A stretch of 64,000 nucleotides of DNA from a virus. The stretch lies in the IMG/VR virus record IMGVR_UViG_3300035698_005189, positions 34,095-98,094 of that record; one strand, 5' to 3'. The position numbers and the translations under genes were made by a program. The notes under the pieces were generated by a model, which saw only the letters and a list, made by a program, of their open reading frames with translations, had not been told where the DNA came from and made no database searches. This document shows positions 269-41,256 of this stretch, in pieces (the first letter of the stretch is position 1; each line of letters begins with the position of its first letter).

Positions 269-349
269 GCAGATCTCCATGGAGTTGCCGGGGGCCTGTG
301 TCGTCGCGCGTGGGGTCGGCGGTCACCTCGTCACCATAACCCAGAACGA

Positions 350-386
350 GCCAAGGCCCGGGAGCGATGTGCTCCCGGGCCTTGGC
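350..386 (-). terminator. Perfect 16-bp hairpin, probable terminator
   Basis: GCCAAGGCCCGGGAGC-gatgt-GCTCCCGGGCCTTGGC; followed on minus strand by TCGTTCT; intergenic. Confidence 0.65.
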
Positions 387-397
387 GGTGGTCTGTG

Positions 398-475
398 CTA
401 TCCTTCCTCGTCATCATCCATGTCCTCGAACTCGTCGCGCTGCAGGTCGGTGCCAGCGATGATGTCGGCAAACAC
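398..475 (-). CDS. Possible 25-aa acidic peptide
   Basis: GTG-start MFADIIAGTDLQRDEFEDMDDDEEG, GC3-rich codons, directly before the hairpin; weak RBS. Confidence 0.3.
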   Translation of the reverse strand: MFADIIAGTDLQRDEFEDMDDDEEG

Positions 476-550
476 CCTGACTCTTGGGCGGCTCCCCGGC
501 GGTGTAACCCGTCGTGACGCGCACCCGACTCGTACGCGTCTCCAAAAGGT

Positions 551-883
551 TTAGGCGGCGTGGACGTTGATGATCTTGCGGCCCTTCACGTCGACGAGGT
601 CGGTGATGGCGTTGACACTGGCCAGCGCGAGGTGGTCACTGTCCTGGTCGGCGTCCACGAGGCCGATGGTCAGGAGGATGTTCATGGCCACGAAGTCTAC
701 GAGGTCGCACTCTTCTTCGACGATGACCCACTCACCGAAGACACCCGTCTCGAGGTCGGCGCGGCGTACGCGGATGTAGCCAGACCACTCGTCGTCTTTG
801 TTGTCGTCGAAGCGCTCGATGAGGATGCGGGTGGCGTCAATTTCGAGGGTCTCGGTGGGCAGGGCGGCTGCGGTCTCTGGCAT
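551..883 (-). CDS. Acidic hypothetical protein (first gene after promoter element 1)
   Basis: 110 aa, D/E rich, GGAG RBS. Confidence 0.75.
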   Translation of the reverse strand: MPETAAALPTETLEIDATRILIERFDDNKDDEWSGYIRVRRADLETGVFGEWVIVEEECDLVDFVAMNILLTIGLVDADQDSDHLALASVNAITDLVDVKGRKIINVHAA

Positions 884-928
884 AACGACTCCGTGATGGT
901 TGGCGGCGGGACACTCCCGCCTTCACCA

Positions 929-7987: not shown

Positions 7988-8974
7988 TCAGTCCTCCTCG
8001 CCGATTGCTGTGGCGGCGTCGAACCAGTCGCGCGTCCGCATGAGCTGCCTCATCGTCGCACGCCTCTTGTTGATCTGTTTATGGAGCCTCGCGTACAGTG
8101 TCGCGTCGAAGTATTCGCCGACGCTGCTCCGTACCATGTCAACGGTGTCGTCTGGTGAGAGGGCGTCAAGCTCCCACGCGTCCTCGACGCCGAACCGCTC
8201 GCAGTACTTGTCGAAGTCGGCCGACGTCTGCTTTGCTGGGAACGGAGGGAGGTCGCGCTCGAGCGCCTGCTCCAGCGTGATGCCGATCCGCCTGAACTCC
8301 AGGGGGAAGGGTCGCTCACTGAGGCCCATGAACGTCCTGACGGTCCGCTCCGCTGTCTCCGGGATTCTGATCCCTGTCGGGTCGTGGTCGCCGAAGTACA
8401 AGACGACGGAACGCTTCGCCATGCCCCGATGGAAGGCACCGGCTGAGTCCCGCCATCCGGCTTCGTTGTCGATCCCATGTATGCGACCAGCCCCGACGAG
8501 CCACTCGTATAGCGAGGCATGGGACGGGTCCCCTCGGCACGAGAAGCACGACACACCCAGTTCACGACATACGGGCTCAAAGACCCCGGCCAAAGCGTCT
8601 TTCTCGAACCAGACAGAGACGTGAACCGGCTGACCGAACCACATATCGCGGTGAAGGTACTTATCTGGGAGTCGCTTCACGGCTTCAGCTGCACGGATCA
8701 GGGCGTTGTCTACCTTCGTGTCGCAGCGCGTAGCCACGCCGGGGCGGACGTATCGTGTCCTGTCTACGAGGGCGTTGAGCGGGAACCCGCCACGGAGCCT
8801 CTCCCGGGACAGGACGACCTTGAAGCGTTCGTACACTGCCCCGTCGGAGGGTACGAGCTTCCTGACCACAGCCTGGTAGTATAGGCCTCGAAGGGTGAGA
8901 CTCCATCCGCGTGCCCGGTACTCCGCGCAGACGCGGTGAGCTATCTCAAGGACGCGTTCAGTCGGGATCGTCAT
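7988..8974 (-). CDS. Winged-helix + TOPRIM protein (TopoVI-A/Spo11-like fold)
   Basis: LTLRGLYYQ, VWFEKDAL, YFGDHDPTG, WELDAL motifs. Confidence 0.8.
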   Translation of the reverse strand: MTIPTERVLEIAHRVCAEYRARGWSLTLRGLYYQAVVRKLVPSDGAVYERFKVVLSRERLRGGFPLNALVDRTRYVRPGVATRCDTKVDNALIRAAEAVKRLPDKYLHRDMWFGQPVHVSVWFEKDALAGVFEPVCRELGVSCFSCRGDPSHASLYEWLVGAGRIHGIDNEAGWRDSAGAFHRGMAKRSVVLYFGDHDPTGIRIPETAERTVRTFMGLSERPFPLEFRRIGITLEQALERDLPPFPAKQTSADFDKYCERFGVEDAWELDALSPDDTVDMVRSSVGEYFDATLYARLHKQINKRRATMRQLMRTRDWFDAATAIGEED

Positions 8975-9893
8975 CTTTGGTGACCTCGGCTACGACGCGA
9001 GCGGCGGCCTCATCGGCTGCAGCCTCCAGCATCGCGGAGAGGCGCTTGGCGTCCTCACTCAGTCGCTGAGCCCAGTTCTGGGCTCGTTGTACTACAGGAA
9101 TAGCTACGGCTGAGTCACCAGCGGCTCGTGTTTCGAGCCAGCGACGGAAGGCCCAGGCCTCAGGTTGTGCCTGCCCCATGGCTTCAGCGACGGCTTCAAC
9201 CAGGAGGGCGGTGCGCTCGTGTTCCCGGCTGGACCGGTCCCGGCGATTGTCTACCGCATCTTGAACAGCCCGACCCAAGACCTTCTCAGCGAAGGCTACC
9301 AGTCCGTCCTCGTCAATCGCCGCCCCAGCCAGGAGCCAGGAGGCCTTGCGCGGCACTGGCTTCGTCTCGCCGTGCAGGCCTGACCAGCCGGAAGCACGAC
9401 GGGCCACCGCGGCCAGGGTCTCACGGGGGACGGTGGAGCCGACGTCCCGCTGGGTGGCGTGCTTCTTGATGACGAGGCCACCACGGTTGAGCACCAGGAG
9501 CCCCCAGCCCTCTGGGACCTCGGAGATGTCGTTGACGACGCCCGGACCTACGGCGAACCAGCACTCGTCGCACATCTCCCTCATGAGGGCGCGCTTCTCG
9601 GGCTGGCGCAGCTCCCTGGTGAAGTCGCCACGCGATCTCTTGATCTCGTAGCCGATCATGCGGCCTCGGACAGCGCTCCAGCAGTGGATGGCCAGCACAT
9701 CCCACGACCGACTGGTCAGGCGGCCTTGGCCGGTGCCCGGAACGAACTCATCGAAGACGGCCCACTCACCGCGCTCCTGAGGGTGCCTGCCCCGTAGGAG
9801 GCCCCGTATGGCTCCCGTGCAGTCCACGGGCGGCCAGGGGTTTTTTGGGAGGCTCTTGTTTTTGACTGGGGGAGGGGGGACGGCCTTACCCAT
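8958..9893 (-). CDS. MmcB-like PD-(D/E)XK nuclease family protein
   Basis: WDVLAI...GYEIKRSRGDFTRELRQPEK...EVPEGWGLL; start at ATG 9893. Confidence 0.75.
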   Translation of the reverse strand: MGKAVPPPPVKNKSLPKNPWPPVDCTGAIRGLLRGRHPQERGEWAVFDEFVPGTGQGRLTSRSWDVLAIHCWSAVRGRMIGYEIKRSRGDFTRELRQPEKRALMREMCDECWFAVGPGVVNDISEVPEGWGLLVLNRGGLVIKKHATQRDVGSTVPRETLAAVARRASGWSGLHGETKPVPRKASWLLAGAAIDEDGLVAFAEKVLGRAVQDAVDNRRDRSSREHERTALLVEAVAEAMGQAQPEAWAFRRWLETRAAGDSAVAIPVVQRAQNWAQRLSEDAKRLSAMLEAAADEAAARVVAEVTKDDDPD

Positions 9894-15162: not shown

Positions 15163-15519
15163 TCACAGGGCCCACGCGGTAAACATGCGTCGCTCGCGTG
15201 GAGTCAGGGTGAGGGCCTTGCGCTCCGCGTGGGAGGGGTGGTAGGCGTCGAAGTCGGTCACCGACCTGTCGAGGGCCTCCCGGCAGGCGCGGGCTGCGTG
15301 GGCCGCCGCGATACGGACCTCCGCCTCACGGAGGGCGCGGTTGGTGGCTTCGTCGGCGAACACGGCCTCATCGACATGCTCAGCCAGCACCTTGTCGGGG
15401 TCGGCCTTGGGCTTGGGCCGGCGGATGCCACAGCGCTGCGCGTAGGCCTGTCGCTTGCGAATGGGTGCCAGGGCTGCCTCACGGCGGGCCTTGGAGCGAC
15501 GTCGGCTGGTCTTACCCAC
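15163..15519 (-). CDS. Basic hypothetical protein
   Basis: 118 aa, overlaps upstream stop. Confidence 0.6.
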   Translation of the reverse strand: MGKTSRRRSKARREAALAPIRKRQAYAQRCGIRRPKPKADPDKVLAEHVDEAVFADEATNRALREAEVRIAAAHAARACREALDRSVTDFDAYHPSHAERKALTLTPRERRMFTAWAL

Positions 15520-15955
15520 GAGGCACCGCCGGGGCGGGGTACTCGCCCAGCTTCAGCGACACAGCCCAGAGGATGTACTCCCCGCGCAGTGGGATGCCCT
15601 TCGCCGACTTCTCCCCGGTGAGGGCGCGGCGGTTGCCGACCAGCCAGTACTCGAAGCGATCACGGTAGACAGCGACGTCTACCGACCCCATCTCGCTTTC
15701 GAGTTGGGCCGGACCCACGAGCGTCCCCAGTGGGAGGCTGTTCATGTCGGCTACGGTCTTACGAGTGTTTACGGCGCGGCGCTCGTCGACTCCACGCCTG
15801 AAGGGACCCATCCGCATTTCTACGACGCGGCCATCGTGGCGACCCCAGACTTCCTTCGTGGGGCTGGAGAGCTGGGTGTCCATGGTGGGGCGTCGCACTG
15901 GTGCAGGGGGAGGTGCGGAACGGGCGGGCGGGGGCGGGGGAGGTGGATGGTTCAC
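15512..15955 (-). CDS. Hypothetical protein with N-terminal Pro7 tag
   Basis: MNHPPPPPPPAR...; AGGA RBS. Confidence 0.65.
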   Translation of the reverse strand: MNHPPPPPPPARSAPPPAPVRRPTMDTQLSSPTKEVWGRHDGRVVEMRMGPFRRGVDERRAVNTRKTVADMNSLPLGTLVGPAQLESEMGSVDVAVYRDRFEYWLVGNRRALTGEKSAKGIPLRGEYILWAVSLKLGEYPAPAVPRG

Positions 15956-24883: not shown

Positions 24884-25110
24884 GCTGGACTCCCGAAGCG
24901 GGCGGCGGTGCAGGCCTTGGCCGCCAGCTCGACGGTGACGACGTCGGCAGGAGACCCTTCGCGCTTGGCGACACGGGCCTGGGCGGCCAAGACTCTACGG
25001 ACTCGCCAGGGCAGTGAGGCGGCTGCCTCACCGACAAGGTCGTCGGCGTGGGACTCTGACGGTAGGGCCCTCAACGCGACACAGACAGGGCAGGTACACT
25101 GGGGGCTCAT
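24880..25110 (-). CDS. Small hypothetical protein
   Basis: 76 aa, CxCxxC, coupled both ends. Confidence 0.55.
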   Translation of the reverse strand: MSPQCTCPVCVALRALPSESHADDLVGEAAASLPWRVRRVLAAQARVAKREGSPADVVTVELAAKACTAARFGSPA

Positions 25111-25802
25111 TTTTCCTCCACGGCGACAGCGGTCGCCACGGTAACGGGGGCTGCGACGGCTCGCTTGGCGGCAATCTGGCGGGCGAGGGCTGTGTACTCG
25201 GCCTCCTCGAGAAGGTCGGGGACGGCGGGGCCCAGGGACCCTGTACCTGTCGCGGTTGCCGCCGCAGGTGCTGCCGCCTGCGCGGCGGTAGCGGCGGCTG
25301 CGGTGGCATCCGAGATCCGCTGTCGCTTGTCCGACCGATGCTTGTCCAGCCGGATCATAGCCGAAGCCATGCCCTCGAAGGTATTCGCCCCGACGGCGTC
25401 TTCGCCGGTCATCCTCTTCAGGCCCTCAGCCCAAATCGTATTCAGCTTGTCCAGCTCATCCAGCTCACGACCGACCGCGTCGCTGGCGGCGTAGGCGAGG
25501 ACGCGCCCCTGGATGTGCCTCCAGTGCGCTGCCCGGCGGTCAGGCCATCCGTCCCGGGTCGCCCTCTCAGCCGTACGGGGCAGGCTGATGACGTCCTTAG
25601 CTAATGCCGACTCGGGCCCGTCGATGCGGGTGGACTCCCACGCCTGCCGGATCGTTATGTCCGGGTCCTGCATGTAGGCCAAGAAGACAGCCATCACGGC
25701 TCGCTGTCCTGGCTTGCCTCCCCGCATGTCGATGACCGCGACCCCGCGCTCGAGTACTGTACGCGGGGGTGGGGGCGGGGGCGGGGTATGTCGCCGCCCC
25801 AC
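25107..25802 (-). CDS. Helical hypothetical protein (possible HTH) with Pro7 tag
   Basis: GTG 25802 after GGAGG; MGRRHTPPPPPPPR; RDGWPDRR motif. Confidence 0.6.
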   Translation of the reverse strand: MGRRHTPPPPPPPRTVLERGVAVIDMRGGKPGQRAVMAVFLAYMQDPDITIRQAWESTRIDGPESALAKDVISLPRTAERATRDGWPDRRAAHWRHIQGRVLAYAASDAVGRELDELDKLNTIWAEGLKRMTGEDAVGANTFEGMASAMIRLDKHRSDKRQRISDATAAAATAAQAAAPAAATATGTGSLGPAVPDLLEEAEYTALARQIAAKRAVAAPVTVATAVAVEEK

Positions 25803-25803
25803 G

Positions 25804-26493
25804 CTACCTCCGGACCGGGGGCGGGGGTGCGCGGTGTCGCTTGGGTCCGGTGAGCCACTCACGACCGAGGACGTTGATGGGGTTGCCCTTGGTGACTCGG
25901 TTGAACACCTGGCGCTGCTTCTCGCGGAGGTCGGTGAGGCGGAGGGTCCCGGCCCTGAGCTTGGCTTCGTCTATGACGACGGCCGCCACAGCCACGGCAT
26001 CGCAGAGGTCCTCTGCGACCGAGGGGTGGAGGTCAGCCAGGAGTGTCCGATCTGGGAAGTAGCGCACGGTCGCCTCCCGCATGTCGGGCTTGTCCGCGTT
26101 GGCGTTGTCGGCGACGTACATCTTGACTGATGAGGGGTCGATCGTCCTGAAGGGCCTGGAGGCCTTGTGGAGTGCCAGGCGACCGGCTCCGCCAATCTCA
26201 CCAGACTCGTGACCACGACCCGAGCCGAAGGAGTAGCCCTCCAGCCCGTAGAAGTCGGCCTCGGCGGCGGGGACCGCCACAGCCAGCCACGTCTCCACAC
26301 CCAGCAGTCGGTCCACGCCCCACTGCTCCTTGTCCTTTGTCGTACGCAGGAGGCGAGTTACCCTCCCGCCTCCCTTCTTCACAGCCGCCTGCGTCAGCGA
26401 GTAGGCCCACCAGTCAACCAGTAGGCCTGTGTGATAGTCCACGACAGCGATGGCTCCGTGGTTGGGGGATACGTCGAGTCCAGCTACCCTCAT
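25804..26493 (-). CDS. ruvC: RuvC-like Holliday junction resolvase
   Basis: GLDVS, LEGYSFG, PSSVK...ADK, DLCDAVAVA. Confidence 0.85.
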   Translation of the reverse strand: MRVAGLDVSPNHGAIAVVDYHTGLLVDWWAYSLTQAAVKKGGGRVTRLLRTTKDKEQWGVDRLLGVETWLAVAVPAAEADFYGLEGYSFGSGRGHESGEIGGAGRLALHKASRPFRTIDPSSVKMYVADNANADKPDMREATVRYFPDRTLLADLHPSVAEDLCDAVAVAAVVIDEAKLRAGTLRLTDLREKQRQVFNRVTKGNPINVLGREWLTGPKRHRAPPPPVRR

Positions 26494-29352: not shown

Positions 29353-30798
29353 TCACCTCGCCTCGAGGTAGAGGCCCCGGAGGGTCAGCCACAGCCGGGG
29401 GTCCTCAGACATGAGATTCGAGAGGGCGGTCCAGCCTCGGAATGACCGATTCGCTGCGCCCAGGATGGAGGGGTCTGTGAAGCTCGACCAGCCACCGCCG
29501 ACCCGGATGATTCCGCGCATCTTGAGGTCTTCGTATACAGCCCAGGCGTTGTCGGCACCACGACCGAAGATCAGGCCATACTTTTCGGTATGGAATGGCG
29601 ACTCGACCTTGTTCTTGGGAATCCTGATACGGACGATCTGCCCCATAGGTACGGGGTGGCTATCCTTGGCCGAGCCGGGAGGCAGGACTTCGCCGATCTT
29701 GTCAACCTCGATCCGGACGGTCGAGTGATACTTGATGCCGCCTCCGCCGTAGGTCTCGGACGAAGGCCCGTAGGTGTTGCGGCCCATCTTGATCGTCTCA
29801 TAGCGCTGGTTGACGAGCACAAAGGCGATAGCCTCATCATCGATCAGCTGGATGAGGCGTCGCAGGTTGGATCGGATGACCTTGGCAGCGGCTGCCGGGT
29901 GGACGTCGCGCGCCGAGCCCTCCAGCTCCTTCTCCGTGGGGGTGCCAGCGACAGAGTCCCAGGTGATGACCACCGGACGGTCGGCGGCTACAGCGAGTTC
30001 ATTCTCCCGCCCAGAGTTCCAATCCGACAGCGCGTCGGCCTTGTCTGCGGCGGTGTCGCCATACAGGATGACGGGGCGCAGCATCTCCCGGGTCAGGTTG
30101 TCCCTGATCCCGGATACCTGCATCCCTTCGTTTCGCTGAAACTGGACAAGGGCGGCAGACTGCTCACGACTCCACTTGGCGAAGGTGAACGAGGCGACCG
30201 TCTTGGGCTTGCCCTTGGGGTCGGCCGGGGGCTCGATGATCTTGTGTATGTAGGTCTGGGGCTTGCCTGGCTTGAGGCCTGCCCTCGCCATGGCAGCGAT
30301 CCAGGCGCGACAGTTGAGGTCGGCCAGCTGACGGGCCAGGACCTCGACCTCGTCAAACATCGACTCGACGGTGCGACCACCGACCCAGATCATCGAGTGA
30401 TCGAGGATGCCAAGGGTCCTCATGTAGGGGCGGGAGCGACCACGCTCACAGTCGGCCAGGACCGCCAGACCGCCGTCGGCCTGACACTGAGCCATAATCT
30501 GGTCGGCCATCGTGGACTTGCCTGCCCCGAACCAGCCAGAGATCTCGGTCACACGACCGAGGGGGATACCGGGGACCCCGAGAGCCCGGTCCAGTGCGAT
30601 GTTCCGGGTACCGACGAACCCACGCGGAGAGCCCAGGGTCTCGGACATATCCAGAGTTGTCGCCTGGTCCTCACCAAAGGCCTCCCGGAGGCTGGCAGCG
30701 ATGGACCTTGCCAGGGGGTCTACCCGCCGCTTGGGGGCAGCTGGTCGTGCTGCCTTAGATGGGCGCGGCGGGGCTGGCGGGGGTGGCGGTCGGGTCAA
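29353..30798 (-). CDS. recA: RecA/UvsX-like recombinase with ~115-aa insertion
   Basis: GRVTEISGWFGAGKST, WDSVA, VNQ, TYGGGGIKYHSTVRI, KNKVESPF. Confidence 0.92.
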   Translation of the reverse strand: MTRPPPPPAPPRPSKAARPAAPKRRVDPLARSIAASLREAFGEDQATTLDMSETLGSPRGFVGTRNIALDRALGVPGIPLGRVTEISGWFGAGKSTMADQIMAQCQADGGLAVLADCERGRSRPYMRTLGILDHSMIWVGGRTVESMFDEVEVLARQLADLNCRAWIAAMARAGLKPGKPQTYIHKIIEPPADPKGKPKTVASFTFAKWSREQSAALVQFQRNEGMQVSGIRDNLTREMLRPVILYGDTAADKADALSDWNSGRENELAVAADRPVVITWDSVAGTPTEKELEGSARDVHPAAAAKVIRSNLRRLIQLIDDEAIAFVLVNQRYETIKMGRNTYGPSSETYGGGGIKYHSTVRIEVDKIGEVLPPGSAKDSHPVPMGQIVRIRIPKNKVESPFHTEKYGLIFGRGADNAWAVYEDLKMRGIIRVGGGWSSFTDPSILGAANRSFRGWTALSNLMSEDPRLWLTLRGLYLEAR

Positions 30799-30953
30799 GC
30801 ATCACCTCTGATCTCTGCGATAAGGACCTCACGCTCGGCTTCCGTGAGGGCTGGAGGTCCTGGCCTCTCTGGCGACACGGCCTGGCAGGCGGTGGCCTCC
30901 GGACAGGGCCCGCAGGCTCTGTCGTCGGGCCACCACCTACCGAAGCACCTCAG
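30795..30953 (-). CDS. 52-aa Cys4 (putative Zn-binding) protein, CTG start
   Basis: xRCFGRWWPDDRACGPCPEATACQ...; CTGA overlap with ssb stop and TTGA overlap with recA start. Confidence 0.55.
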   Translation of the reverse strand: MRCFGRWWPDDRACGPCPEATACQAVSPERPGPPALTEAEREVLIAEIRGDA

Positions 30954-32494
30954 AAGGGCATGTCGCCGCCCGGAGGGACCGGGGGGCCGCTCGCACCTCC
31001 CGCAGCCGGCGGGGCGGGCGGACCGGGTCGCGCTGGGGCGGCGGGTGGACCCGACGACGGAGCGGCTGGCGGTCCTGGGGGAGCCGCCCGGGCGGGCGGG
31101 GCGGGAGGCCCGGCGGGAGCCACGGGCGGCGTGGGGGGACCGGCTGCCACGGGAGGCGGGGTCGGGGGCGGGGCTGGCTTGCTCCGGGCCACGAGCGCGT
31201 CGATGGCGGCCTTGACGTTCGGCACGCTGGCGGCGGGAGCCCAGTCGGCCATCCCATCGGCCCAGACGAGGTTGGGGGCGTCGGGGGCGTCGAGCACCTG
31301 GGCTGCGATAGCGCCGGCCGACTGGTCGGTCTGCGCGTCACCCAGCCCAGCGAAGTGGTAGAGCTGCTCGGTCTCGGCGGGGGCAGGGGGACCCTCTGGT
31401 GCGTAGCCACCGCCTGGCGCGTAGCCCGGGGGACCGTTGGCGAGGGGAGCCGTGGGCGCGGGTCGCTGAGCATTGACAGCGGCAGCGATCTCGGGCACGG
31501 TACCGGCGTCGACCCAGCCAGCCATCCCATCCGTCCAGACGGTGTGGGTCGCTCCCTCGGCCGAGCCCAGGACGATGCGCGCCACACCGACGGGGTCGAG
31601 GCCGTCGAACTTGCCTCCGGTGCCGTTGTAGTGGTAGGTCACGACCGATGCCGGGGGCGCGGCTGCGGGCGGTGGGCCTGCGGCGGGACGATGGGGCGTG
31701 GCGGGCGGGGGTGCCCCGGCGTCACCCATGCTGGGGCCGGTGCCTCTGGGGTCGAGCTTCCGGGCGGCGGTGGTCAGCGCGGTTGGGTCGGCCGCCTTGA
31801 CCAGCGACGACAGCTCGAGGGCTGCCTGCAGGATGGGCAGGTAGGCGTCGTCGAGGCGGCTGGAGTCGCTGCCTTCGGTGACCGCGTATTTGACGTCCAT
31901 CGCACGAGCACCGGTCTTCTCGACCTCGATCAGGATGTCGCGTCCGCTCTGGTAGTCCTCGATAGGTCCCTTGGCGACACAGATCCGGATCAGCCCGGCC
32001 TGGACGGTGGGCGAGTAGCCCATCACCTTGGGAGCCACGACCCAGCCGCCCTGCCCGTCTTCGGTCCAGTGAGACTGCGGGTTGTCGAGGTCGATGACGT
32101 TGCAGTACAGGCGACCGCGTGCTCCGATCTCCTTGGCGACGGCTTCGTAGTCGGTCCGCTTGGCCGCGAAAAGCTCACGGCGGAGGGCGCAGATAGGGCA
32201 GACCTTGGGGGCGGCGCGGTTGTCGTGGTCATCGGGGCAGGGCAGGTTCTGGAGGGCCCCGTCGATCTTGACCTTGTGGACGTAGGTACTCACCCAGAAC
32301 TTCGCCTCCGGGTTCGCTGTGTCGGGTGCTCCGTCGGACCCCTGCGGGAGGCGGGGGATGACGCGGACGCGGTTCGTGGTTCGCTGTCCCTTGCTGGCGG
32401 GGCGCTTGAACTCGAACCACGAGAAGTCGCCTCCGCCGCCTCCGCCGCCTCGCTGGGCAAGGCGCTCTTGTTCCTGTTCGTAGACACTGGACAT
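30950..32494 (-). CDS. ssb: gp32-like ssDNA-binding protein with two GYF_2-like domains
   Basis: NRVRVIP, H..CP..CPIC Zn site, RLYCNVID, GRDILI; two VWxDGMxxWxxAxxVP repeats; Pro-rich linkers; C-terminal DMPF. Confidence 0.85.
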   Translation of the reverse strand: MSSVYEQEQERLAQRGGGGGGGDFSWFEFKRPASKGQRTTNRVRVIPRLPQGSDGAPDTANPEAKFWVSTYVHKVKIDGALQNLPCPDDHDNRAAPKVCPICALRRELFAAKRTDYEAVAKEIGARGRLYCNVIDLDNPQSHWTEDGQGGWVVAPKVMGYSPTVQAGLIRICVAKGPIEDYQSGRDILIEVEKTGARAMDVKYAVTEGSDSSRLDDAYLPILQAALELSSLVKAADPTALTTAARKLDPRGTGPSMGDAGAPPPATPHRPAAGPPPAAAPPASVVTYHYNGTGGKFDGLDPVGVARIVLGSAEGATHTVWTDGMAGWVDAGTVPEIAAAVNAQRPAPTAPLANGPPGYAPGGGYAPEGPPAPAETEQLYHFAGLGDAQTDQSAGAIAAQVLDAPDAPNLVWADGMADWAPAASVPNVKAAIDALVARSKPAPPPTPPPVAAGPPTPPVAPAGPPAPPARAAPPGPPAAPSSGPPAAPARPGPPAPPAAGGASGPPVPPGGDMPF

Positions 32495-32496
32495 CG

Positions 32497-33171
32497 TTAG
32501 CTCCTGGGCTTCGGGGTTGGGGGTGGCGGCGGGCCGCCGGAAGTGCGGGCGGGGATGGGGGACCGGGGCTTCGCAGCCACCTCGTCCTCGAGGTCCGGCA
32601 GGGTGTCTGTTGTCCCGCCGTGGTAGGTGGCATCCTCGTCGCCACCGGGGGCGGGGGTGTCATCGCGGGGGGCCGCTCCACCTGAGCCGCCGGTACCCGA
32701 CCAGGACTGGATCGCCCAGCGCCGAGCGCGGGCGGCCTCGAGGGCACCGTACACGACCTCCCAGGCCTCCGTGGTCTTCGCCTTGAGGCCATAGTGGGTG
32801 CGATACTCGGGCAGGGAGCGAACGTACTTCTCCGAGGCCGATACCGCTGGGCACTTCGCCTTCGGCCCGGTGGCGCAGTCGAAGCCAGCGTTGACCGCCA
32901 TCTCGATGTCGTTGGTCAGGTCGTGGATGAGCGAGTCGCGCCAGATCCGGTAGTCGACGTCAGCCATCTCCTTGTCGCGGGCGGCGGCAGCCACCAGCCG
33001 GGCCAGTTCGCTGACCAGTTGTGGGGTCCGGTCGCCCTCGTGGTCGTGCAGCTCCGGGCTGATAGCGACCAGGGTAGCCAGGTAGGCTCCGGTGTACTCC
33101 CGCTCGCGCACGACGACGGGGGGCATTTCGATGAGGCCTGCAACCAGCAGACGGTGTGGGACTCGGCTCAT
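32497..33171 (-). CDS. UvsY-like recombination mediator (putative)
   Basis: Long helical protein between pol and ssb; EKYVRSLPEY...GALEAARAR pattern. Confidence 0.5.
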   Translation of the reverse strand: MSRVPHRLLVAGLIEMPPVVVREREYTGAYLATLVAISPELHDHEGDRTPQLVSELARLVAAAARDKEMADVDYRIWRDSLIHDLTNDIEMAVNAGFDCATGPKAKCPAVSASEKYVRSLPEYRTHYGLKAKTTEAWEVVYGALEAARARRWAIQSWSGTGGSGGAAPRDDTPAPGGDEDATYHGGTTDTLPDLEDEVAAKPRSPIPARTSGGPPPPPTPKPRS

Positions 33172-35231
33172 AGGGCGATCTCCTTCTTGTCGGCCCACGA
33201 AGTTGTAGTGACCGACGGCTTAGCGATAATCGGGGTACGGCCAAAGCGACCCACGAAGGGCTCTTCCATATGACGCATAGTCCCGTAGGCGACTGTCTTT
33301 ACGTCCTCGAGGGCGCAGTCAACGTGAATCTCATCGTGAACGGTGCCCGTCGGCTTGCCCCGGAGGGTCCCGGCCTTGTTGGCGAGCCACATCCCGACGA
33401 TAGCATAGCGGGTCAGCTCACCGGCGGCTCCCTGGATTAGGGACGCGAAGGCCTCCCGGATGGCTGCCCCAGCGGCTCCGCGTGGGGGCCAGCCGACGTT
33501 AGCGACATGCCGCTTGCGGCCAGTCCAGTTGACGAAGAAGGGGCCCTTGCCGTCGCCACGGTCCATCCTGAGCATGGACTCCACCAGGCGCTTCTTGGTC
33601 GCGTGGACCTCGGGATTCGCCCTCTCGTACCTGTCGAGGTAGTCGCGGGCCTGGGCCTCGGTCAGCATGAGGTCGGGGTTGGCCTGCAGTCCTGGGGGAC
33701 CCATCCCGTATGGGACGCCGAAGTTGATCGGCTTGGCGCAGGGTCGCTTGGCCTTCATCACAGCCGGGTCCCGCAGGGCCTCTGGCCACATCGCCCCAGC
33801 AACGTCCCGATGGATATCGGCTTCCGTCTCACCGGCCCTCATGAGGATGTAGCCGTCGTAGTCCACACCATTCGCGCAGTAGTAGTCGTAGGCAGGCGAG
33901 GCGTAGGCCTGCTGGAGGATCTTGCCGTCGGTATGATGCCCAAGGACCCGCAGCTCCACCTGGGAGTAGTCGCACAGGACGCGAGCACGACCGGGCTCGA
34001 TGTAGAAGGCTCGCCTGACGGCAGGACCCATGACAGGATGGCGGTTCGGTAGGTTGTGGAGTGTCGGGTCGGCTTCAGCGAAGCGACCCGTACGGGTACC
34101 AGCCTGCCTGACTGTGGTATGGACACGACCGTCAGCCCCTGCGTACCAGGCCAGCCCCTTGGTGTAGGTGGTCCTGACTCGCTGTCGGATCTTCCATTCA
34201 GCCAGCTCAGCGATGCTGGGGTGTACGTCCCGCATCATGAGAAGAGCGCCCTTGTCGACCGACGGGAGCTTCGCCTTGCCCTTGGTGCGCTTCTTGACGG
34301 GGGCCTTCAGATGGTTGTAGAGCAAGTCGCGGATGGCGTTGTCGTTCGACCAGTCGAGGTTGACCCCGAATCCCTGCCGCAGGAGGGCACCCCGGCGGGC
34401 GAGGTCGTCGTCAAGTTCATTAGCGAAGCGGTGCAGGTAGTCGACGTCCAGCGCCTGGCCCTCGTATTCGAGGTCGGCCAGCGCCCGTACCAGCAGCATT
34501 TCGTTGGCGTACAGAATGAGTCGCTTACGCTCCCAGGACTCACCGAGACCCATGGCCTCCCGGCGCTGGTGTCGGTCGAGTAGCAGGGCGTGGGCGACGT
34601 CCCGGCAGGCGTACTCAGCCTCGATGCCGACTGGTACCTCGGAGTGACCGAAGGCTGACAGGTACGACTGGATGCCGCGCTCGGTGTCATCCTTGTAGAG
34701 GGTCATTCGTCTCGACTTGGCCAGGTCTCGCAGGACACCCTCGACGCCCGACTTCGACTCGTAGGGGTCCCATGGGGAGATCTGCGCCTGGGCCGCCAGC
34801 GATTCGAGGTTGATTAGGCGCTCTTCGTAGATCAGGTGCCCCTGGATCATCGAGTCGTGGATAGCGGCTTCGTCGGGCATTGGGTGGCCAGCGGCCCGGG
34901 CCATGTTGAGGTCGAACTTGATGTTCTGGCCGACCAGCTCTTCGGCTCCCTCGAGGGCGTCGTCGAATGCCTCCCAGGCGGTTGTCGGGTTGGCCTGGAC
35001 GTCGCAGGTACGGTGCCCGAAGGGGACGTACCACGCCCGATGTGAGCCGTCGTCTTCAAGGAACCCGAGGGAGTAGCCGATTGGGCGGTCGCCGTTGGCG
35101 TACCGGAGGCCGGTGGTCTCGAAGTCGACTCCGCGCTTCCGGTGGCGAACGAGAGAAGCCACCATCGTAGCCAGTTGGGCTCCGGTGGTGGCGAGTTGAT
35201 GCCTCTGGTCGAGGTGGGCAGGGATGATCAC
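33168..35231 (-). CDS. polA: DNA polymerase family A with 3'-5' exonuclease
   Basis: DFETTG, NIKFD, YACRD; DYSQVELR (A), KPINFGVPYG (B), VHDEI (C); GTGA-coupled start. Confidence 0.95.
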   Translation of the reverse strand: MIIPAHLDQRHQLATTGAQLATMVASLVRHRKRGVDFETTGLRYANGDRPIGYSLGFLEDDGSHRAWYVPFGHRTCDVQANPTTAWEAFDDALEGAEELVGQNIKFDLNMARAAGHPMPDEAAIHDSMIQGHLIYEERLINLESLAAQAQISPWDPYESKSGVEGVLRDLAKSRRMTLYKDDTERGIQSYLSAFGHSEVPVGIEAEYACRDVAHALLLDRHQRREAMGLGESWERKRLILYANEMLLVRALADLEYEGQALDVDYLHRFANELDDDLARRGALLRQGFGVNLDWSNDNAIRDLLYNHLKAPVKKRTKGKAKLPSVDKGALLMMRDVHPSIAELAEWKIRQRVRTTYTKGLAWYAGADGRVHTTVRQAGTRTGRFAEADPTLHNLPNRHPVMGPAVRRAFYIEPGRARVLCDYSQVELRVLGHHTDGKILQQAYASPAYDYYCANGVDYDGYILMRAGETEADIHRDVAGAMWPEALRDPAVMKAKRPCAKPINFGVPYGMGPPGLQANPDLMLTEAQARDYLDRYERANPEVHATKKRLVESMLRMDRGDGKGPFFVNWTGRKRHVANVGWPPRGAAGAAIREAFASLIQGAAGELTRYAIVGMWLANKAGTLRGKPTGTVHDEIHVDCALEDVKTVAYGTMRHMEEPFVGRFGRTPIIAKPSVTTTSWADKKEIAL

Positions 35232-35593
35232 GCTGCGCCAGAAGCAGCGACACCCGCCCACGCGGCGAGCTGCCGACCGTAGGCGGGATCTGTCAGGGCT
35301 GAGGCGAGGTGGTCTGGCGTGACCTCCACGATACCAGCCCTCCCAGTGAGCGCTCCGACAAGGTGGACTGTCACTCCGTTGGCCACGAGCAAGACCTCTG
35401 CGACCGGCTCCCATCCGTCGCCGACGTCACCGAAGACGGAGAGGCTGAAGCCGTGGGGGGCCGGCAGGACTCGCGTCGTGTCGGGGGTCCGGGGGTCGCC
35501 CGTCTCCCGTCGCAGGTCAACCACAGTCACAGGTCGCGCCCTGACGTCAACACGATCAGGGGGGACTTCTCCGTAGCGGGTTTCACCGAACAC
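35228..35593 (-). CDS. Hypothetical protein
   Basis: GTG after GGAGG. Confidence 0.55.
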   Translation of the reverse strand: MFGETRYGEVPPDRVDVRARPVTVVDLRRETGDPRTPDTTRVLPAPHGFSLSVFGDVGDGWEPVAEVLLVANGVTVHLVGALTGRAGIVEVTPDHLASALTDPAYGRQLAAWAGVAASGAA

Positions 35594-35876: not shown

Positions 35877-36186
35877 TCGTACTCCTTTCCGGGCAGGTCG
35901 CACCACGGCGGCTACGCCACGACCCAGCGATGTAGTCCTGGTTCGCGTCCGACCACGCAGCCACAGCCTCCGAGTGAGAGCGACACAGGTAGGCTCCACT
36001 CTTATCGTGATACCCACAGCCGGCGCAGGTCGACTCCGCCTTCGGCCAGGAGGTCGAGGACGGGGTGGCCTTACGATAGCATGGCGGGGCGGGGACTGAC
36101 CTCTTAGCCGATGACCTACGGGGGGCCGGTGGCGGCGGCGTGGCGGGCGGAGCCCTGCGGGGCGGGGGAGGCGGGGGAGGCCTCAC
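35782..36186 (-). CDS. Pro-rich Cys-containing protein
   Basis: GTGA-coupled; MRPPPPPPPRR...CY...CAGC...C; overlaps DUF2924 gene by 95 nt. Confidence 0.5.
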   Translation of the reverse strand: MRPPPPPPPRRAPPATPPPPAPRRSSAKRSVPAPPCYRKATPSSTSWPKAESTCAGCGYHDKSGAYLCRSHSEAVAAWSDANQDYIAGSWRSRRGATCPERSTNVRPPAPPSRPAPPRPPVRNRPPPRLEGPPR

Positions 36187-36617
36187 GAGCCACGCGTCGG
36201 GGGAGGCGGGGGCCTCCGGACAGGGGATGGCGGGGCCTTCCGGGCGGGCGGGGCTGGTGGTGTCCGCTCGGGGTCGCCAAGGCGGGCCTCGACGACGTGG
36301 GCGGGGACTCCGCAGGGCGGACCTGCCTTGCCACTCCGGAGCAATCCAACGTAGCGACCGTCGCCGGACCAGCACGAGGGAGAATGGACGCAGCCTCCGC
36401 AGAAGTCATCCGCCGGGTCGTAGTCCTGTCGGTAGCAGGACGGGAGCCCCTCGACCCCGGACTCGCGCCCACGGATCAGGAGGATGTTTCGCGCACCCAG
36501 CTCGGACATTCCCTCGTAGTCGGCTTCGTCGATGCCGGCTTCGTCGAGTTCGGCGCGGGTCCCGTCGGTGATGGGTACGGCGGCCAGAGATGACAGATCA
36601 GCCTTCGAGTTCTTCAC
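36183..36617 (-). CDS. Hypothetical Cys4 protein with Pro5 C-terminal tag
   Basis: SCYRQDYDPADDFCGGCVHSPSC; GGAGG RBS. Confidence 0.7.
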   Translation of the reverse strand: MKNSKADLSSLAAVPITDGTRAELDEAGIDEADYEGMSELGARNILLIRGRESGVEGLPSCYRQDYDPADDFCGGCVHSPSCWSGDGRYVGLLRSGKAGPPCGVPAHVVEARLGDPERTPPAPPARKAPPSPVRRPPPPPTRGS

Positions 36618-37272
36618 GGTCGTAATCCTCCACGCCTACTTCGGCGGCCTGGGTGATGGAAGCGATCCCGAGGGACCGCAGATGGGAGACGGCGGCTTCC
36701 TTGGCGTGGGTGAGCCGCGCCGAGACCCGCCGGTAAGCGGGGGAGCTGGGCCGGTCGTGTATGCCGACCATCCGAGCGATGGCGGTGGCAGGCACTTCTT
36801 CAACGTAGCGCAGGTGGAGCAAGGCGAAGGCAGCGGGCGGGAGGTTGCGGCGGAGGGCGTAGACGAGACCCTCGCAGGCGGCCTCAAACTCAGACTCTTC
36901 AGCCGTCTCGTCGCCACGGGCAGGGGTCGGGTCCACAACGTCGACCGGAGTCTCGGTCCCGTCGGGGGCTTTCTGCGTGGTCCCACGGTCGGACTCGGGT
37001 CGGCCTGCGGCCTGAGTCGCCCGGACGATGGTCAAGAAGCGCCGTTTGGCCACGGTCGCCAAGAGGGCGTCGGTGGGGAGCCTGCCGACGGCGGCGTACT
37101 CACGCCGGGACGCCACCAGGATCGCTTCCATGATCTCGGCCTCGACGTCTGTCGCGTCCATCCCGACGCGATGGGGGTGCCACACGCGCCGGGAGAGGAT
37201 GCGGGCCGACGACTGCCACGCCACCAGGACCTCTGTCTCGCCTGGGGCGGGGTTCCTGTCTTCTGGCCTCAT
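36598..37272 (-). CDS. Phage sigma-70/ECF-like sigma factor
   Basis: Region-2-like DATDVEAEIMEAIL...VAKRRFLTIVR; region-4-like LPPAAFALLHLRYVEEVPATAIARMVG...RLTHAK. Confidence 0.75.
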   Translation of the reverse strand: MRPEDRNPAPGETEVLVAWQSSARILSRRVWHPHRVGMDATDVEAEIMEAILVASRREYAAVGRLPTDALLATVAKRRFLTIVRATQAAGRPESDRGTTQKAPDGTETPVDVVDPTPARGDETAEESEFEAACEGLVYALRRNLPPAAFALLHLRYVEEVPATAIARMVGIHDRPSSPAYRRVSARLTHAKEAAVSHLRSLGIASITQAAEVGVEDYDREELEG

Positions 37273-39671: not shown

Positions 39672-39674
39672 AAG

Positions 39675-40265: not shown

Positions 40266-40266
40266 A

Positions 40267-41256
40267 TCATCCTCCAGCGAACAGGCGGCGGATCACTTCC
40301 GACGCGGCGGTACGCTCCTGCTCGGAGCGAATACGGTTGAGAAAGGCGTACTGTGCGGACTCGAGGACCCAAGCGGCCGAGGCCGTGTAGGTCCCGCCAC
40401 TGACGACGCCGATGGTGGCGGGCCCAGAAGCGACCCGGCGGCCCCAGTCAATGAGGGTACGGAACGACACACCACCAGACACCTGACCGCCACCTCGGAT
40501 GCGTTGGGCGACACGAATGAGGCCCTCCGCGTCCAGGTTGTGGAGGGCCGGCACTACGCCGGTAAGGGCGACAAGCTCGGAGTCGTTGTCGAGGTAGTCG
40601 ACCTGGAGGGTGGTCCCGAAGCGGTCGAGCATCGCTTCATTCGCGTCGGGGCTGGTCCCGGAGTACAGGTAGCGGTCGTTCTCCTGCCCCGCGCCGAGCA
40701 CGTTGTCGGTAGCGAATACCCGGAAGTCAGGATGACGATTGGCGTAGCGGACGGGGTCGGCATCCTCGAGCAGGACAGCACCGTCGGCCTCGAGGATGGG
40801 GAAAAGGCTCAGGGCGACATGCGGGGTCGCACCAGACAGCTCGTCGAGGACAAGCCACGCTCCCTCTTCCATCGCACGGGTGACGGGCCCGGGGACGAAC
40901 GTCGTGGCTCCGTCGGCGGCTGCCCGCTGGCCCTTGAGCTGCCGAACCGTCGTACCTACGTTCAGGTTCACGCGGTATACTGGGATATCGCAGCGAGCGG
41001 CAATCTGGAGGACGAGGGAGGTCTTACCCGACCCCTTGGGTCCAGCCAGCAGGACCGGCATGGGGGAGCCGTTGTCGTGTGGCCACGCGGACCATGCGAT
41101 CTCACGAACCAGCTTCTCACGAAAGACGTAGCCGGGGTCGATGGTCGGTACCTGGGGCGTGCGACCACCGGGGCGGCGGTGGAGGATGACGTCGATGTCT
41201 GGGATGGTGACGTGCGACGAGCGAGCCGGTGGAGGCGGGGGAGGTGTTCGGGTCAT
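40267..41256 (-). CDS. cobS: CobS/MoxR-family AAA+ ATPase
   Basis: GPKGSGKT, LVLDE, FATDN, AMLDRF. Confidence 0.9.
   Translation of the reverse strand: MTRTPPPPPPARSSHVTIPDIDVILHRRPGGRTPQVPTIDPGYVFREKLVREIAWSAWPHDNGSPMPVLLAGPKGSGKTSLVLQIAARCDIPVYRVNLNVGTTVRQLKGQRAAADGATTFVPGPVTRAMEEGAWLVLDELSGATPHVALSLFPILEADGAVLLEDADPVRYANRHPDFRVFATDNVLGAGQENDRYLYSGTSPDANEAMLDRFGTTLQVDYLDNDSELVALTGVVPALHNLDAEGLIRVAQRIRGGGQVSGGVSFRTLIDWGRRVASGPATIGVVSGGTYTASAAWVLESAQYAFLNRIRSEQERTAASEVIRRLFAGG

What the first reader, a model, noticed from the sequence alone, without database searches (positions are those of the whole stretch)
31205..31640. gp32-like SSB fused to tandem GYF_2 (DUF4339)-like domains
After the Zn-binding SSB core come two ~50-aa repeats, YHYNG...HTVWTDGMAGWVDAGTVPEI (about 31480..31640) and YHFAG...NLVWADGMADWAPAASVPNV (about 31205..31363), matching the GYF_2 consensus VWxxGMxxWxxAxxVPEL. 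They sit in Pro/Ala linkers and the protein still ends in a bacterial SSB-like tip (DMPF). I know of no described SSB with this architecture. The N-terminal GP motif of the consensus is missing in both, so specificity may differ.
Basis: partly seen in the sequence, partly recalled or inferred. Interest (0 to 1): 0.8.

Follow-up and report, generated by a model that had tools for sequence, protein, structure and literature searches.

The report
Phage SSB carrying two GYF domains
A 98-kb uncultured phage encodes a T4 gp32-type single-stranded-DNA-binding protein in which two proline-recognition (GYF_2) domains take the place of the usual acidic partner-binding tail, probably to dock polyproline-tagged recombination and replication proteins.

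Summary
The ORF at window 30950..32494 (-), 514 aa, lies in a complete 98,094-bp IMG/VR phage genome. It consists of:
- a gp32-fold core with the His/Cys3 zinc site;
- a Pro-rich linker;
- GYF_2 copy 1 (residues 283-344);
- a second linker;
- GYF_2 copy 2 (residues 375-437);
- a 77-residue Pro-rich tail ending GGDMPF.

The core is supported by a family profile match to solved gp32 (E 5e-10) and by Foldseek (probability 1.0). Pfam GYF_2 passes its cut-off. The repeats model as four strands plus two helices, and GYF domains lead an unbiased fold search, though with low Z.

The fusion is a clade trait. 32 of 89 cluster representatives carry a GYF_2 domain; all are metagenomic and none has a functional name. 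Only this protein has two copies in tandem. GYF-less relatives often end in a bacterial DDDIPF-like tip.

The likely mechanism (inferred) is that the GYF_2 domains read proline-rich motifs. In GYF-carrying phages, terminal P4-7 runs sit on the UvsY-like, UvsX/RecA-like, RuvC-like and other replication-module proteins: 26 of 226 genes, against 0 of 259 in GYF-less relatives. The UvsY-like C-terminal run is kept in 7 of 7 orthologues. No binding was tested.

The scan found no GYF-SSB on other DNA. A note on this same genome proposed the same tag network.

The parts
30950..32494 (-). Whole SSB gene, 514 aa plus stop (P0001)
   Evidence: Open frame; AGGAG 6 nt upstream of the ATG; 84 representatives related to the core
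32420..32494 (-). N-terminal helix (residues 4-12) and poly-Gly linker (residues 16-22)
   Evidence: S3, Y5, E8 and the Gly-rich stretch with D23 are conserved among close relatives; helix in the model. A role like the cooperativity peptide of T4 gp32 is inferred only.
31745..32419 (-). gp32-fold ssDNA-binding core, residues 26-250
   Evidence: pLDDT above 90; Foldseek 2a1k, 1gpc and 8gme at probability 1.0, TM-score by target 0.56-0.67; family profile against solved gp32 E 5e-10; PHROG 1192 SSB 6.5e-8
32189..32278 (-). Zinc site H73, C86, C99, C102
   Evidence: H73, C86 and C99 are nearly invariant in 89 sequences; C102 is nearly invariant among the 12 closer homologues. All four align with the His/Cys ligand positions of RB69 gp32.
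31649..31744 (-). Pro/Ala-rich linker 1, residues 251-282
   Evidence: pLDDT 52-57; variable in length among relatives
31463..31648 (-). GYF_2 domain 1, residues 283-344
   Evidence: Own family HMM 8.5e-25; Pfam stretch 22 bits; pLDDT 88-98; strands 287-291, 294-299, 318-320 plus a bridge; helices 301-310 and 334-343; fold hits to GYF domains
31373..31462 (-). Linker 2, residues 345-374, with a doubled Gly-Tyr-Ala-Pro motif
   Evidence: pLDDT below 50; 18-nt tandem at 31391-31426; similar Tyr/Gly motif in orthologues
31184..31372 (-). GYF_2 domain 2, residues 375-437
   Evidence: Own HMM 1e-23; Pfam stretch 23.6 bits; pLDDT about 80 in the full-length model with the same strand/helix order; 39% identical to domain 1
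30953..31183 (-). Pro-rich C-terminal tail, residues 438-514, ending PPGGDMPF
   Evidence: Low pLDDT. 26 of 32 GYF-carrying relatives end in Phe; 30 of 32 have fewer than two acidic residues in the last eight, commonly with a PPGG motif.
32497..33198 (-). Upstream 233-aa protein, candidate UvsY-like mediator, with a C-terminal PPPPP run (32518..32532)
   Evidence: The run of four or more Pro is invariant in 7 of 7 orthologues although the tail around it varies. The UvsY assignment is only a lead from the protein atlas (TM 0.54/0.69); no Pfam or PHROG hit.
29353..30798 (-). UvsX/RecA-like recombinase with an N-terminal PPPPP-A-PP run (30766..30789)
   Evidence: Pfam RecA 4.4e-31, PHROG UvsX-like 1.9e-46. 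N-terminal runs of four or more Pro in 4 of 7 GYF-clade orthologues; the others have shorter Pro/Lys tails.
25804..26493 (-). RuvC-like resolvase with a C-terminal PPPP run flanked by Arg
   Evidence: PHROG 159 4.9e-22; tag
40267..41256 (-). AAA_5 (CobS-like) ATPase with an N-terminal P6 run
   Evidence: Pfam AAA_5 1.9e-22; the orthologue in L005/G001 also has an N-terminal P4 run
25107..25802 (-). 231-aa protein of unknown function with an N-terminal P7 run (counted from the internal start at 25802)
   Evidence: orthologues have N-terminal Pro/Lys-rich tails with PP only
8958..9893 (-). MmcB-like nuclease with an N-terminal PPPP run (counted from the start at 9893)
   Evidence: Pfam MmcB-like 1.1e-4; tag
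15512..15955 (-). 147-aa protein with an N-terminal P7 run
   Evidence: no family match
36183..36617 (-). 144-aa protein with a C-terminal P5 run flanked by Arg
   Evidence: orthologues end in basic tails with PP or PPP

Best explanation
This is the phage's replicative and recombinational single-stranded-DNA-binding protein. It has a gp32-family zinc/OB core (shown by homology and fold). In place of T4 gp32's acidic C-terminal partner-binding domain it has a disordered Pro-rich arm with two bacterial-type GYF_2 domains and a tail ending in Phe (shown). Inferred mechanism: the core coats ssDNA, and each GYF_2 domain binds a short proline-rich motif. The solved GltJ GYF domain of Myxococcus does this with the proline-rich segment of AglZ. 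The most likely ligands are the terminal polyproline runs, usually flanked by Arg or Lys. The first candidate is the C-terminus of the UvsY-like protein encoded just upstream. Others are the N-terminus of the UvsX/RecA-like recombinase just downstream, and the RuvC-like resolvase, a CobS-like ATPase, an MmcB-like nuclease and several small proteins of the same module. The SSB would then be a hub with inverted polarity relative to bacterial SSB: the reader domain sits on the SSB and the short motif on the clients. Two readers on one flexible arm would allow avidity, or two clients at once, for example mediator plus recombinase during filament hand-over.
For: Core identity: the profile of 89 relatives hits RB69 and T4 gp32 structures at E 5e-10 with the His/Cys ligand positions aligned. 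The model has pLDDT above 90 over residues 30-250. Foldseek gives gp32 cores at probability 1.0. PHROG SSB scores 6.5e-8. Orthologues pass the Pfam gp32 cut-off.
GYF_2 identity: Pfam 32.9 bits against 25.8. One orthologue's single domain matches model positions 1-49 at 28.7 bits. V-W-x-x-G-x-x-x-W is invariant in the family. The model has four strands and two helices, as described for GltJ GYF (PMC11135422). The best sequence-profile hit in the PDB is GltJ GYF 7z3c, which is also the best Foldseek hit. Among 48,161 representative chains, U5-52K chain 4bws_C (residues 276-341) is rank 1 (Z 4.9) and U5 snRNP chain 1syx_F rank 3; I take both, from memory, to be the CD2BP2 GYF domain. The chains titled GYF follow at ranks 7, 11, 22 and 33.
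Ligand class: GltJ GYF binds a proline-rich sequence through its beta-sheet, the surface carrying the residues most conserved among bacterial GYF domains (PMC11135422).
Clients: in this genome 11 of 17 runs of four or more Pro are terminal, against 4.8 expected (12 of 5000 simulations reach this), and 10 of the 11 have Arg/Lys flanks. They cluster in the replication/recombination module. Across genomes, 26 of 226 genes in GYF-carrying phages have such a tag, against 0 of 259 in GYF-less relatives with 54-65% GC (Fisher 1e-9). The UvsY-like C-terminal run is invariant in 7 of 7 orthologues at about 40% identity, inside an otherwise variable tail.
Gene order: PolA, UvsY-like, SSB, UvsX-like, SbcD-like, SbcC-like, RuvC-like.
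Against: The fold matches have low absolute Z (3-5), as expected for a domain of about 60 residues. Shorter Pro/Lys-rich tails (PP or PPP) also sit on the RecA-like and CobS-like orthologues of GYF-less relatives, so basic Pro-rich tails do not depend strictly on a GYF reader and could be DNA-binding arms. Two GYF-carrying records (G002, L020) have only one or two runs of four or more Pro. The genomes compared are related, so the Fisher test overstates independence. Genes were called with a home-made caller, and some N-terminal tags depend on the choice of start codon. The ligand motif of bacterial GYF_2 domains is not defined; GltJ GYF does not bind the eukaryotic CD2 peptide.
Confidence: 0.6

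Rival explanations
1. Self-association or autoregulation. The GYF_2 domains bind the SSB's own Pro-rich linkers or its conserved PPGGxxF tail, in cis (closing the protein until ssDNA is bound) or in trans (cooperative filaments or condensates on ssDNA). This is not exclusive of the hub model.
For: Tail chemistry changes together with the GYF domain. GYF-carrying proteins mostly end in a non-acidic Pro/Gly tail with a terminal Phe: 26 of 32 end in Phe and 30 of 32 have fewer than two acidic residues in the last eight. GYF-less relatives often end DDDIPF-like. 11 of 32 GYF-carrying SSBs have a basic-flanked run of four or more Pro downstream of the last GYF. The domains are always embedded in Pro-rich disordered segments.
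Against: This SSB's own arm has no run longer than PPP, while its neighbours carry P5-7 runs. The most conserved tag is on another protein, the UvsY-like one, in 7 of 7 orthologues.
Confidence: 0.25
2. Host capture. The GYF_2 domains bind a proline-rich host protein, for example a host repair, replication or envelope-associated factor, to recruit or sequester it at phage ssDNA.
For: GYF_2 domains are widespread in bacteria as adaptor modules (PMC11135422), so host ligands exist. The sister clade's DDDIPF-like tips suggest that these SSBs engage host SSB partners.
Against: The host is unknown, and no relative was found in 185,579 species genomes. The co-occurrence with phage-encoded tags is explained more simply by phage clients.
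Confidence: 0.08
3. The tags are unrelated to the GYF domains. The terminal basic polyproline runs are DNA-binding arms or act at the ribosome (polyproline stalling that depends on EF-P, used as translational control), and the GYF_2 domains have some other ligand.
For: Pro/Lys tails occur on the same orthologues in GYF-less relatives. From general knowledge, runs of three or more Pro stall ribosomes.
Against: C-terminal as well as N-terminal placement, invariance of the run in the variable UvsY-like tail, and total absence of runs of four or more Pro from terminal positions in 259 genes of GYF-less relatives fit a docking motif better.
Confidence: 0.12
4. The repeats are chance or compositional matches in a GC-rich, Pro/Ala-rich tail and do not fold.
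For: Each Pfam stretch alone is below the cut-off and covers only the C-terminal 20 model positions.
Against: The domain is conserved in 32 relatives. pLDDT is 88-98 for copy 1 and about 80 for copy 2. The pairwise E-value is 1e-10. An orthologue gives a full-length Pfam match. GYF folds top the unbiased fold search.
Confidence: 0.02

Closest known systems
T4 / RB69 gp32 (Pfam PF08804; PDB 1gpc, 2a1k, 8gme)
   Same: Same core fold. The same His/Cys3 zinc site. A short N-terminal peptide before the core. The same genomic company: family A polymerase, UvsX-like and UvsY-like genes, and an SbcCD-like nuclease.
   Different: Only 10-14% identity in the structural alignments. The single sequence is below the Pfam cut-off. 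The acidic C-terminal partner-binding domain is replaced by about 260 residues of Pro-rich arm carrying two GYF_2 domains.
GltJ (AgmX) GYF domain of Myxococcus xanthus, PDB 7z3c (PMC11135422)
   Same: Bacterial-type GYF_2 lacking the eponymous G-Y-F. It shares the W-x-x-G-x-x-D-W motif, a four-strand/two-helix fold and a flexible linker setting. It is the only bacterial GYF with a demonstrated ligand, a proline-rich sequence.
   Different: GltJ is a membrane-anchored motility protein with a zinc-ribbon partner domain. Here the domain is doubled and fused to an SSB in a phage. The sequence match is weak (E 0.17).
Bacterial SSB hub (disordered linker plus DDDIPF tip)
   Same: An ssDNA-binding core followed by a long Pro/Gly-rich disordered linker and a C-terminal Pro-Phe. 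The presumed role is as a recruiting platform for recombination and repair enzymes.
   Different: The core fold differs (gp32 type, not a homotetrameric OB). The tip has one acidic residue instead of three or four. Folded reader domains sit in the linker, so the short motif would be on the clients rather than on the SSB.
Eukaryotic GYF domains (CD2BP2/U5-52K, GIGYF1/2, Smy2)
   Same: Same small fold: U5-52K chain 4bws_C (residues 276-341) is the top hit of the unbiased fold search. These domains recognise proline-rich motifs.
   Different: The canonical G-Y-F signature and the PPG-type binding groove are not conserved. Bacterial GYF uses another surface according to PMC11135422.
T7 gp2.5 C-terminal tail
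   Same: A phage SSB that uses its C-terminal end, with a terminal Phe, to contact replisome partners (from general knowledge).
   Different: Different core family, an acidic tail and no folded adaptor domain.

Membership tests
gp32 family of SSBs (PF08804) | Sequence homology to the family | tested here: met
   The single sequence is sub-threshold (17.3 bits against 26.8, E 0.005). However, the profile of 89 relatives hits solved gp32 at E 5e-10. 25 of 89 relatives match PF08804, best 8e-13. Orthologues P0009, L008 and L010 exceed the cut-off. PHROG 1192 scores 6.5e-8.
gp32 family of SSBs (PF08804) | Core fold: OB-type cleft with a zinc subdomain | tested here: met
   AlphaFold pLDDT above 90 for residues 30-250. 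Foldseek against 2a1k, 1gpc and 8gme gives probability 1.0, TM-score by target 0.56-0.67, E 1e-8 to 7e-7.
gp32 family of SSBs (PF08804) | His + 3 Cys zinc ligands | tested here: met
   H73, C86 and C99 are conserved in at least 90% of 89 sequences and C102 in at least 90% of the 12 closer homologues. All four align with the RB69 gp32 ligand positions.
gp32 family of SSBs (PF08804) | Binds ssDNA cooperatively | not testable with these tools
   Needs a gel-shift or fluorescence titration with purified protein.
T4 gp32 in the strict sense (N-peptide, core, acidic C-domain) | Acidic C-terminal partner-binding domain | tested here: not met
   Residues 251-514 are Pro/Ala/Gly-rich with two GYF_2 domains and only scattered acidic residues. 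This protein is therefore a family member but not a T4-type three-domain gp32.
GYF_2 (PF14237, formerly DUF4339) | Match to the family model above the curated cut-off | tested here: met
   32.9 bits against 25.8, summed over two stretches. Each stretch alone scores 22-24 bits. The single domain of an orthologue matches model positions 1-49 at 28.7 bits. P0009 scores 40.5 bits.
GYF_2 (PF14237, formerly DUF4339) | GYF fold: four-stranded sheet plus two helices | tested here: met
   The secondary-structure order in both copies matches the GltJ GYF description. U5-52K chain 4bws_C (residues 276-341) and U5 snRNP chain 1syx_F rank 1 and 3 of 48,161 chains, and chains titled GYF rank 7, 11, 22 and 33. 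Absolute Z is only 2.7-4.9.
GYF_2 (PF14237, formerly DUF4339) | N-terminal consensus of the model (aromatic-Tyr ... Gly-Pro); a consensus feature, not a requirement | tested here: inconclusive
   The aromatic-His-aromatic start is kept. Gly-Pro is replaced by GT (copy 1) and GL (copy 2) but is kept in most orthologues. The Pfam alignment covers only positions 30-49 here.
GYF_2 (PF14237, formerly DUF4339) | Binds proline-rich sequences | not testable with these tools
   Shown only for GltJ GYF (PMC11135422). Here it is inferred from co-occurring polyproline tags.
Bacterial SSB C-terminal tip (acidic D-D-D-I-P-F) | Terminal hydrophobic-Pro-Phe | tested here: met
   The protein ends M-P-F.
Bacterial SSB C-terminal tip (acidic D-D-D-I-P-F) | Run of acidic residues before the Pro-Phe | tested here: not met
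   One Asp only. 30 of 32 GYF-clade tails have fewer than two acidic residues in the last eight, while 13 GYF-less relatives have the acidic form. The tail is therefore not filed as a bacterial-type tip.

The most novel reading that the evidence does not exclude
These roughly 100-kb phages wire their recombination-dependent replication through a short-motif code. Client recruitment to ssDNA would then be set by tag length and by the number of readers: two readers here, one in most relatives, and N- plus C-terminal readers in P0009 and P0027. This would be an undescribed, portable organising principle for a phage replisome or recombinosome, and the first assigned role for a GYF_2 domain in a virus.
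Probability: 0.4. Interest if true: 0.8.

Novelty: new variant of a known kind. Interest (0 to 1): 0.66.

Why it matters
SSBs are the hubs of DNA replication, recombination and repair. How they recruit partners is known for only a few solutions: the acidic domain of T4 gp32, the acidic Phe-terminated tail of T7 gp2.5, and the DDDIPF tip of bacterial SSB. This protein suggests a further solution, in which a folded proline-motif reader sits on the SSB and short tags sit on the clients. It also gives a concrete, easily testable ligand hypothesis for bacterial-type GYF_2 domains; I found an experimental ligand for only one such domain, GltJ. If confirmed, the tag-reader pair could serve as a small orthogonal recruitment module. 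It could also help annotate unknown phage genes as SSB clients.

Tried and rejected
- tblastn of the SSB and megablast of 12 kb around it against 50,697 phage records gave no match.
It worked with A3.
- Scans with the GYF-less proteins P0040 and P0046, meant to enlarge the control set, found nothing.
- The genome-contig scan found no prophage relative, so there is no host clue. No tRNA gene lies in the window.
The long contigs of P0004, P0006, P0009, P0021 and P0038 could therefore not be examined.
- A word-indexed search with the GYF region alone (residues 280-440) gave no hit at database-wide E-values, so I could not survey the architecture from the GYF side.
- The second structure job modelled copy 1 well but copy 2 poorly, because the alignment depth went to copy 1. 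Evidence for the copy 2 fold therefore rests on the full-length model.
- A profile of the UvsY-like protein against the PDB gave nothing.
- P0043 in the representative search is an immunoglobulin-repeat protein and a false positive.
- A first GC3-based gene filter was too crude and was replaced by a codon-score caller.
- A tree of the 60-residue GYF segments is too weakly resolved to date the duplication.
Full report
WHAT IS THERE

The window is bases 34095-98094 of a 98,094-bp IMG/VR virus record with direct terminal repeats, rated 100% complete, at 66% G+C. The finding lies in the ORF 30950..32494 on the minus strand, which encodes 514 aa. Its ATG follows the stop codon of the upstream gene by two bases and is preceded by AGGAG at a spacing of 6 nt.

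Gene order in the direction of transcription:
- family A DNA polymerase with a 3'-5' exonuclease domain (33168..35414);
- a 233-aa protein (32497..33198);
- the SSB;
- a UvsX/RecA-like recombinase (29353..30798);
- SbcD-like and SbcC-like nuclease subunits;
- a RuvC-like resolvase;
- a DNA methyltransferase.

This is a recombination-dependent replication module.

THE CORE

Pfam gp32 is sub-threshold for the single sequence (17.3 bits, E 0.005). PHROG 1192, "single strand DNA binding protein", scores 6.5e-8.

A full HMMER scan of 1.84 billion representatives with residues 1-250 gave 84 hits at E <= 0.001. One of them, P0043, is an immunoglobulin-repeat false positive.
- A profile of 89 family members matches the solved RB69 and T4 gp32 structures at E 5e-10, with the His and three Cys ligand positions in register.
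- 25 of the 89 match PF08804 individually, best 8e-13, and some pass the cut-off.
- The AlphaFold model has pLDDT above 90 over residues 30-250.
- Foldseek returns only gp32 cores as significant hits, with probability 1.0 and TM-score by target up to 0.67.

A short conserved N-terminal helix and a poly-Gly linker precede the core.

THE REPEATS

Residues 283-344 and 375-437 are homologous to each other: 39% identity, E 1e-10. Pfam GYF_2 passes its gathering score on the sum of the two (32.9 against 25.8). Each copy alone scores 22-24 bits and aligns only to the C-terminal 20 model positions.

Orthologues remove the ambiguity. The single domain in record G002 matches model positions 1-49 at 28.7 bits, and P0009 scores 40.5 bits. 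V-W-x-x-G-x-x-x-W is invariant in the family.

Copy 1 models with pLDDT 88-98 and copy 2 with about 80. Both have the order strand-strand-helix-strand-(strand)-helix. This is the four-strand, two-helix arrangement described for the solved bacterial GYF domain of GltJ (PMC11135422).

Three searches point the same way:
- Foldseek ranks that structure, 7z3c, first, followed by plant, yeast and human GYF domains. E-values are not significant for so small a domain.
- A sequence profile of seven family GYF segments also has 7z3c as its best hit in the PDB, at E 0.17.
- The aligner that does not depend on Foldseek, run over 48,161 representative chains, puts U5-52K chain 4bws_C (residues 276-341) first (Z 4.9, rmsd 3.2 Å, 58 aligned) and U5 snRNP chain 1syx_F third. 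I take both, from memory, to be the CD2BP2 GYF domain. The chains titled GYF (GltJ, GIGYF1, Arabidopsis, Smy2) follow at ranks 7, 11, 22 and 33.

Each line is weak alone. Together with Pfam they settle the assignment.

HOW COMMON THE ARCHITECTURE IS

An HMM built from the family's own GYF segments finds the domain in 32 of the 90 proteins collected. All of these are close relatives of the query core. The few close relatives that lack it are truncated fragments. Pfam itself detects GYF_2 in 19 of 89 at E <= 0.01.

Most members have one domain after the core. P0009 and P0027 have one before and one after the core. Only the query has two in tandem after the core.

All members come from metagenome assemblies in clusters of one to five sequences, and none carries a functional name. 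Several lie on contigs of 86-113 kb. No relative was found in 185,579 prokaryote species genomes or in 50,697 deposited phage genomes. The held literature has no paper combining GYF with a phage SSB. The fusion is therefore a trait of a small clade of uncultured phages of about 100 kb, and it appears to be undescribed.

THE TAIL

The GYF-carrying clade mostly ends in a non-acidic Pro/Gly tail with a terminal Phe. 26 of 32 members end in Phe, and 30 of 32 have fewer than two acidic residues in the last eight. The commonest ending is PPGGxAF.

The GYF-less clade often ends in a DDDIPF-like bacterial tip; 13 members have the acidic form. The query, ending PPGGDMPF, is intermediate.

MECHANISM

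Shown: the anatomy described above.

Established elsewhere: GYF domains are proline-rich-sequence adaptors. The one bacterial GYF studied binds the proline-rich segment of AglZ with micromolar affinity. It does so through its beta-sheet, the surface that carries the residues most conserved among bacterial GYF domains (PMC11135422).

Inferred: the SSB's GYF_2 domains read proline-rich motifs on other proteins.

I looked for candidate ligands. With a codon-score gene caller, the genome has 17-20 runs of four or more Pro. 11 of 17 lie within 12 residues of a terminus or of an internal start, against 4.8 expected (12 of 5000 simulations reach this), and 10 of the 11 are flanked by Arg or Lys.

The terminally tagged proteins lie at window 8958-41256, plus one straddling the window start:
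- UvsY-like protein (C-terminal tag);
- UvsX/RecA-like recombinase (N-terminal tag);
- RuvC-like resolvase (C-terminal tag);
- CobS-like AAA_5 ATPase (N-terminal tag);
- MmcB-like nuclease (N-terminal tag);
- several small proteins of unknown function.

Comparison across genomes:

| Set | Records | G+C | Genes with a terminal tag |
|---|---|---|---|
| GYF-carrying | 6 records or loci | 55-66% | 26 of 226 |
| GYF-less gp32-like SSB relatives | 4 records | 54-65% | 0 of 259 |

Fisher's test gives 1e-9, but the genomes are not phylogenetically independent.

The strongest single item is the protein encoded just upstream of the SSB. In 7 of 7 orthologues, at about 40% identity, a run of four or five Pro followed by Arg or Lys is invariant at the extreme C-terminus of an otherwise unalignable tail. 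That is the signature of a short linear motif. The protein atlas gives a UvsY-like fold as a lead for this protein (TM 0.54/0.69). In T4, UvsY and UvsX are classic gp32 partners (general knowledge).

CAVEATS

- The recombinase and CobS-like orthologues of GYF-less relatives also have Pro/Lys-rich termini, with PP or PPP only.
- Two GYF-carrying records have only one or two long runs.
- Some N-terminal tags depend on start-codon choice.
- No binding was modelled.

The hub model is therefore the best-supported reading, not a demonstrated one. Self-association through the SSB's own Pro-rich tail is a serious rival and is not exclusive of the hub model.

COMPARISON AND VERDICT

The protein is a member of the gp32 family and carries genuine GYF_2 domains. 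It is not a T4-type three-domain gp32, and it lacks the acidic run of a bacterial-type tip.

Functionally it most resembles the bacterial SSB hub (core, disordered linker, terminal Phe), but with folded readers on the SSB. It is a new variant of a known kind. The possible tag-reader network is the more novel element.

I tested it partly and independently, by cross-genome conservation and controls. The scan holds no GYF-SSB on other DNA.

Noticed in passing
P0040-P0090; loci L008:8002-9417 and L010:9728-11110: The GYF-less sister clade of these gp32-fold SSBs often ends in a bacterial-type DDDIPF-like tip. Many members have a Pro-rich extension of about 100 residues before the core. A gp32 fold combined with the bacterial SSB tip suggests these phages tap the host's SSB interactome.
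   Followed up: partly
window 31391-31426 (minus-strand residues about 357-368): There is an 18-nt tandem duplication encoding a doubled Gly-Tyr-Ala-Pro-Gly motif in the linker after GYF_2 copy 1. Orthologues keep a similar Tyr/Gly motif at the same place, so it may be a second short linear motif.
   Followed up: no
window 32497-33198 (-): The 233-aa protein upstream of the SSB has no Pfam or PHROG hit. The protein atlas places its predicted structure near UvsY clusters (TM 0.54/0.69). The atlas record starts at residue 25, but orthologues conserve residues upstream of that.
   Followed up: partly
window 29353-30798 (-), residues about 215-240: The RecA/UvsX-like recombinase (481 aa) matches Pfam RecA in two stretches, with a weak PG_binding_1 hit (E 0.015) between them. 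This suggests an insertion in the ATPase core, as another note of this scan proposed.
   Followed up: no
window 30799-30949: A 151-nt gap separates the SSB stop from the recombinase start, in an otherwise tightly packed operon. I did not examine it.
   Followed up: no
P0009 and P0027: Two relatives carry an extra GYF_2 domain at the very N-terminus, before the core. These two domains are 67% identical to each other. This is a second route to two readers per SSB.
   Followed up: partly
window 37269-41256 (-): A CobT-like VWA protein (800 aa) and a CobS-like AAA_5 ATPase (329 aa) lie next to each other in the replication module. The ATPase has an N-terminal P6 tag. The VWA protein has an internal Pro run flanked by acidic residues, conserved in G001.
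   Followed up: no
genome positions upstream of the window (window -12834..-10723, -): The 703-aa sigma-like protein has two internal basic-flanked Pro runs (P4 and P6). These are the only long runs in the virion/early half of the genome, apart from the C-terminal P6 tag of the 395-aa protein at window -907..280.
   Followed up: no
P0043: A 3688-aa protein listed among the core's hits (E 1.9e-15, 13 stretches) is an immunoglobulin-repeat protein. It is a false positive of the single-sequence search and was excluded.
   Followed up: yes
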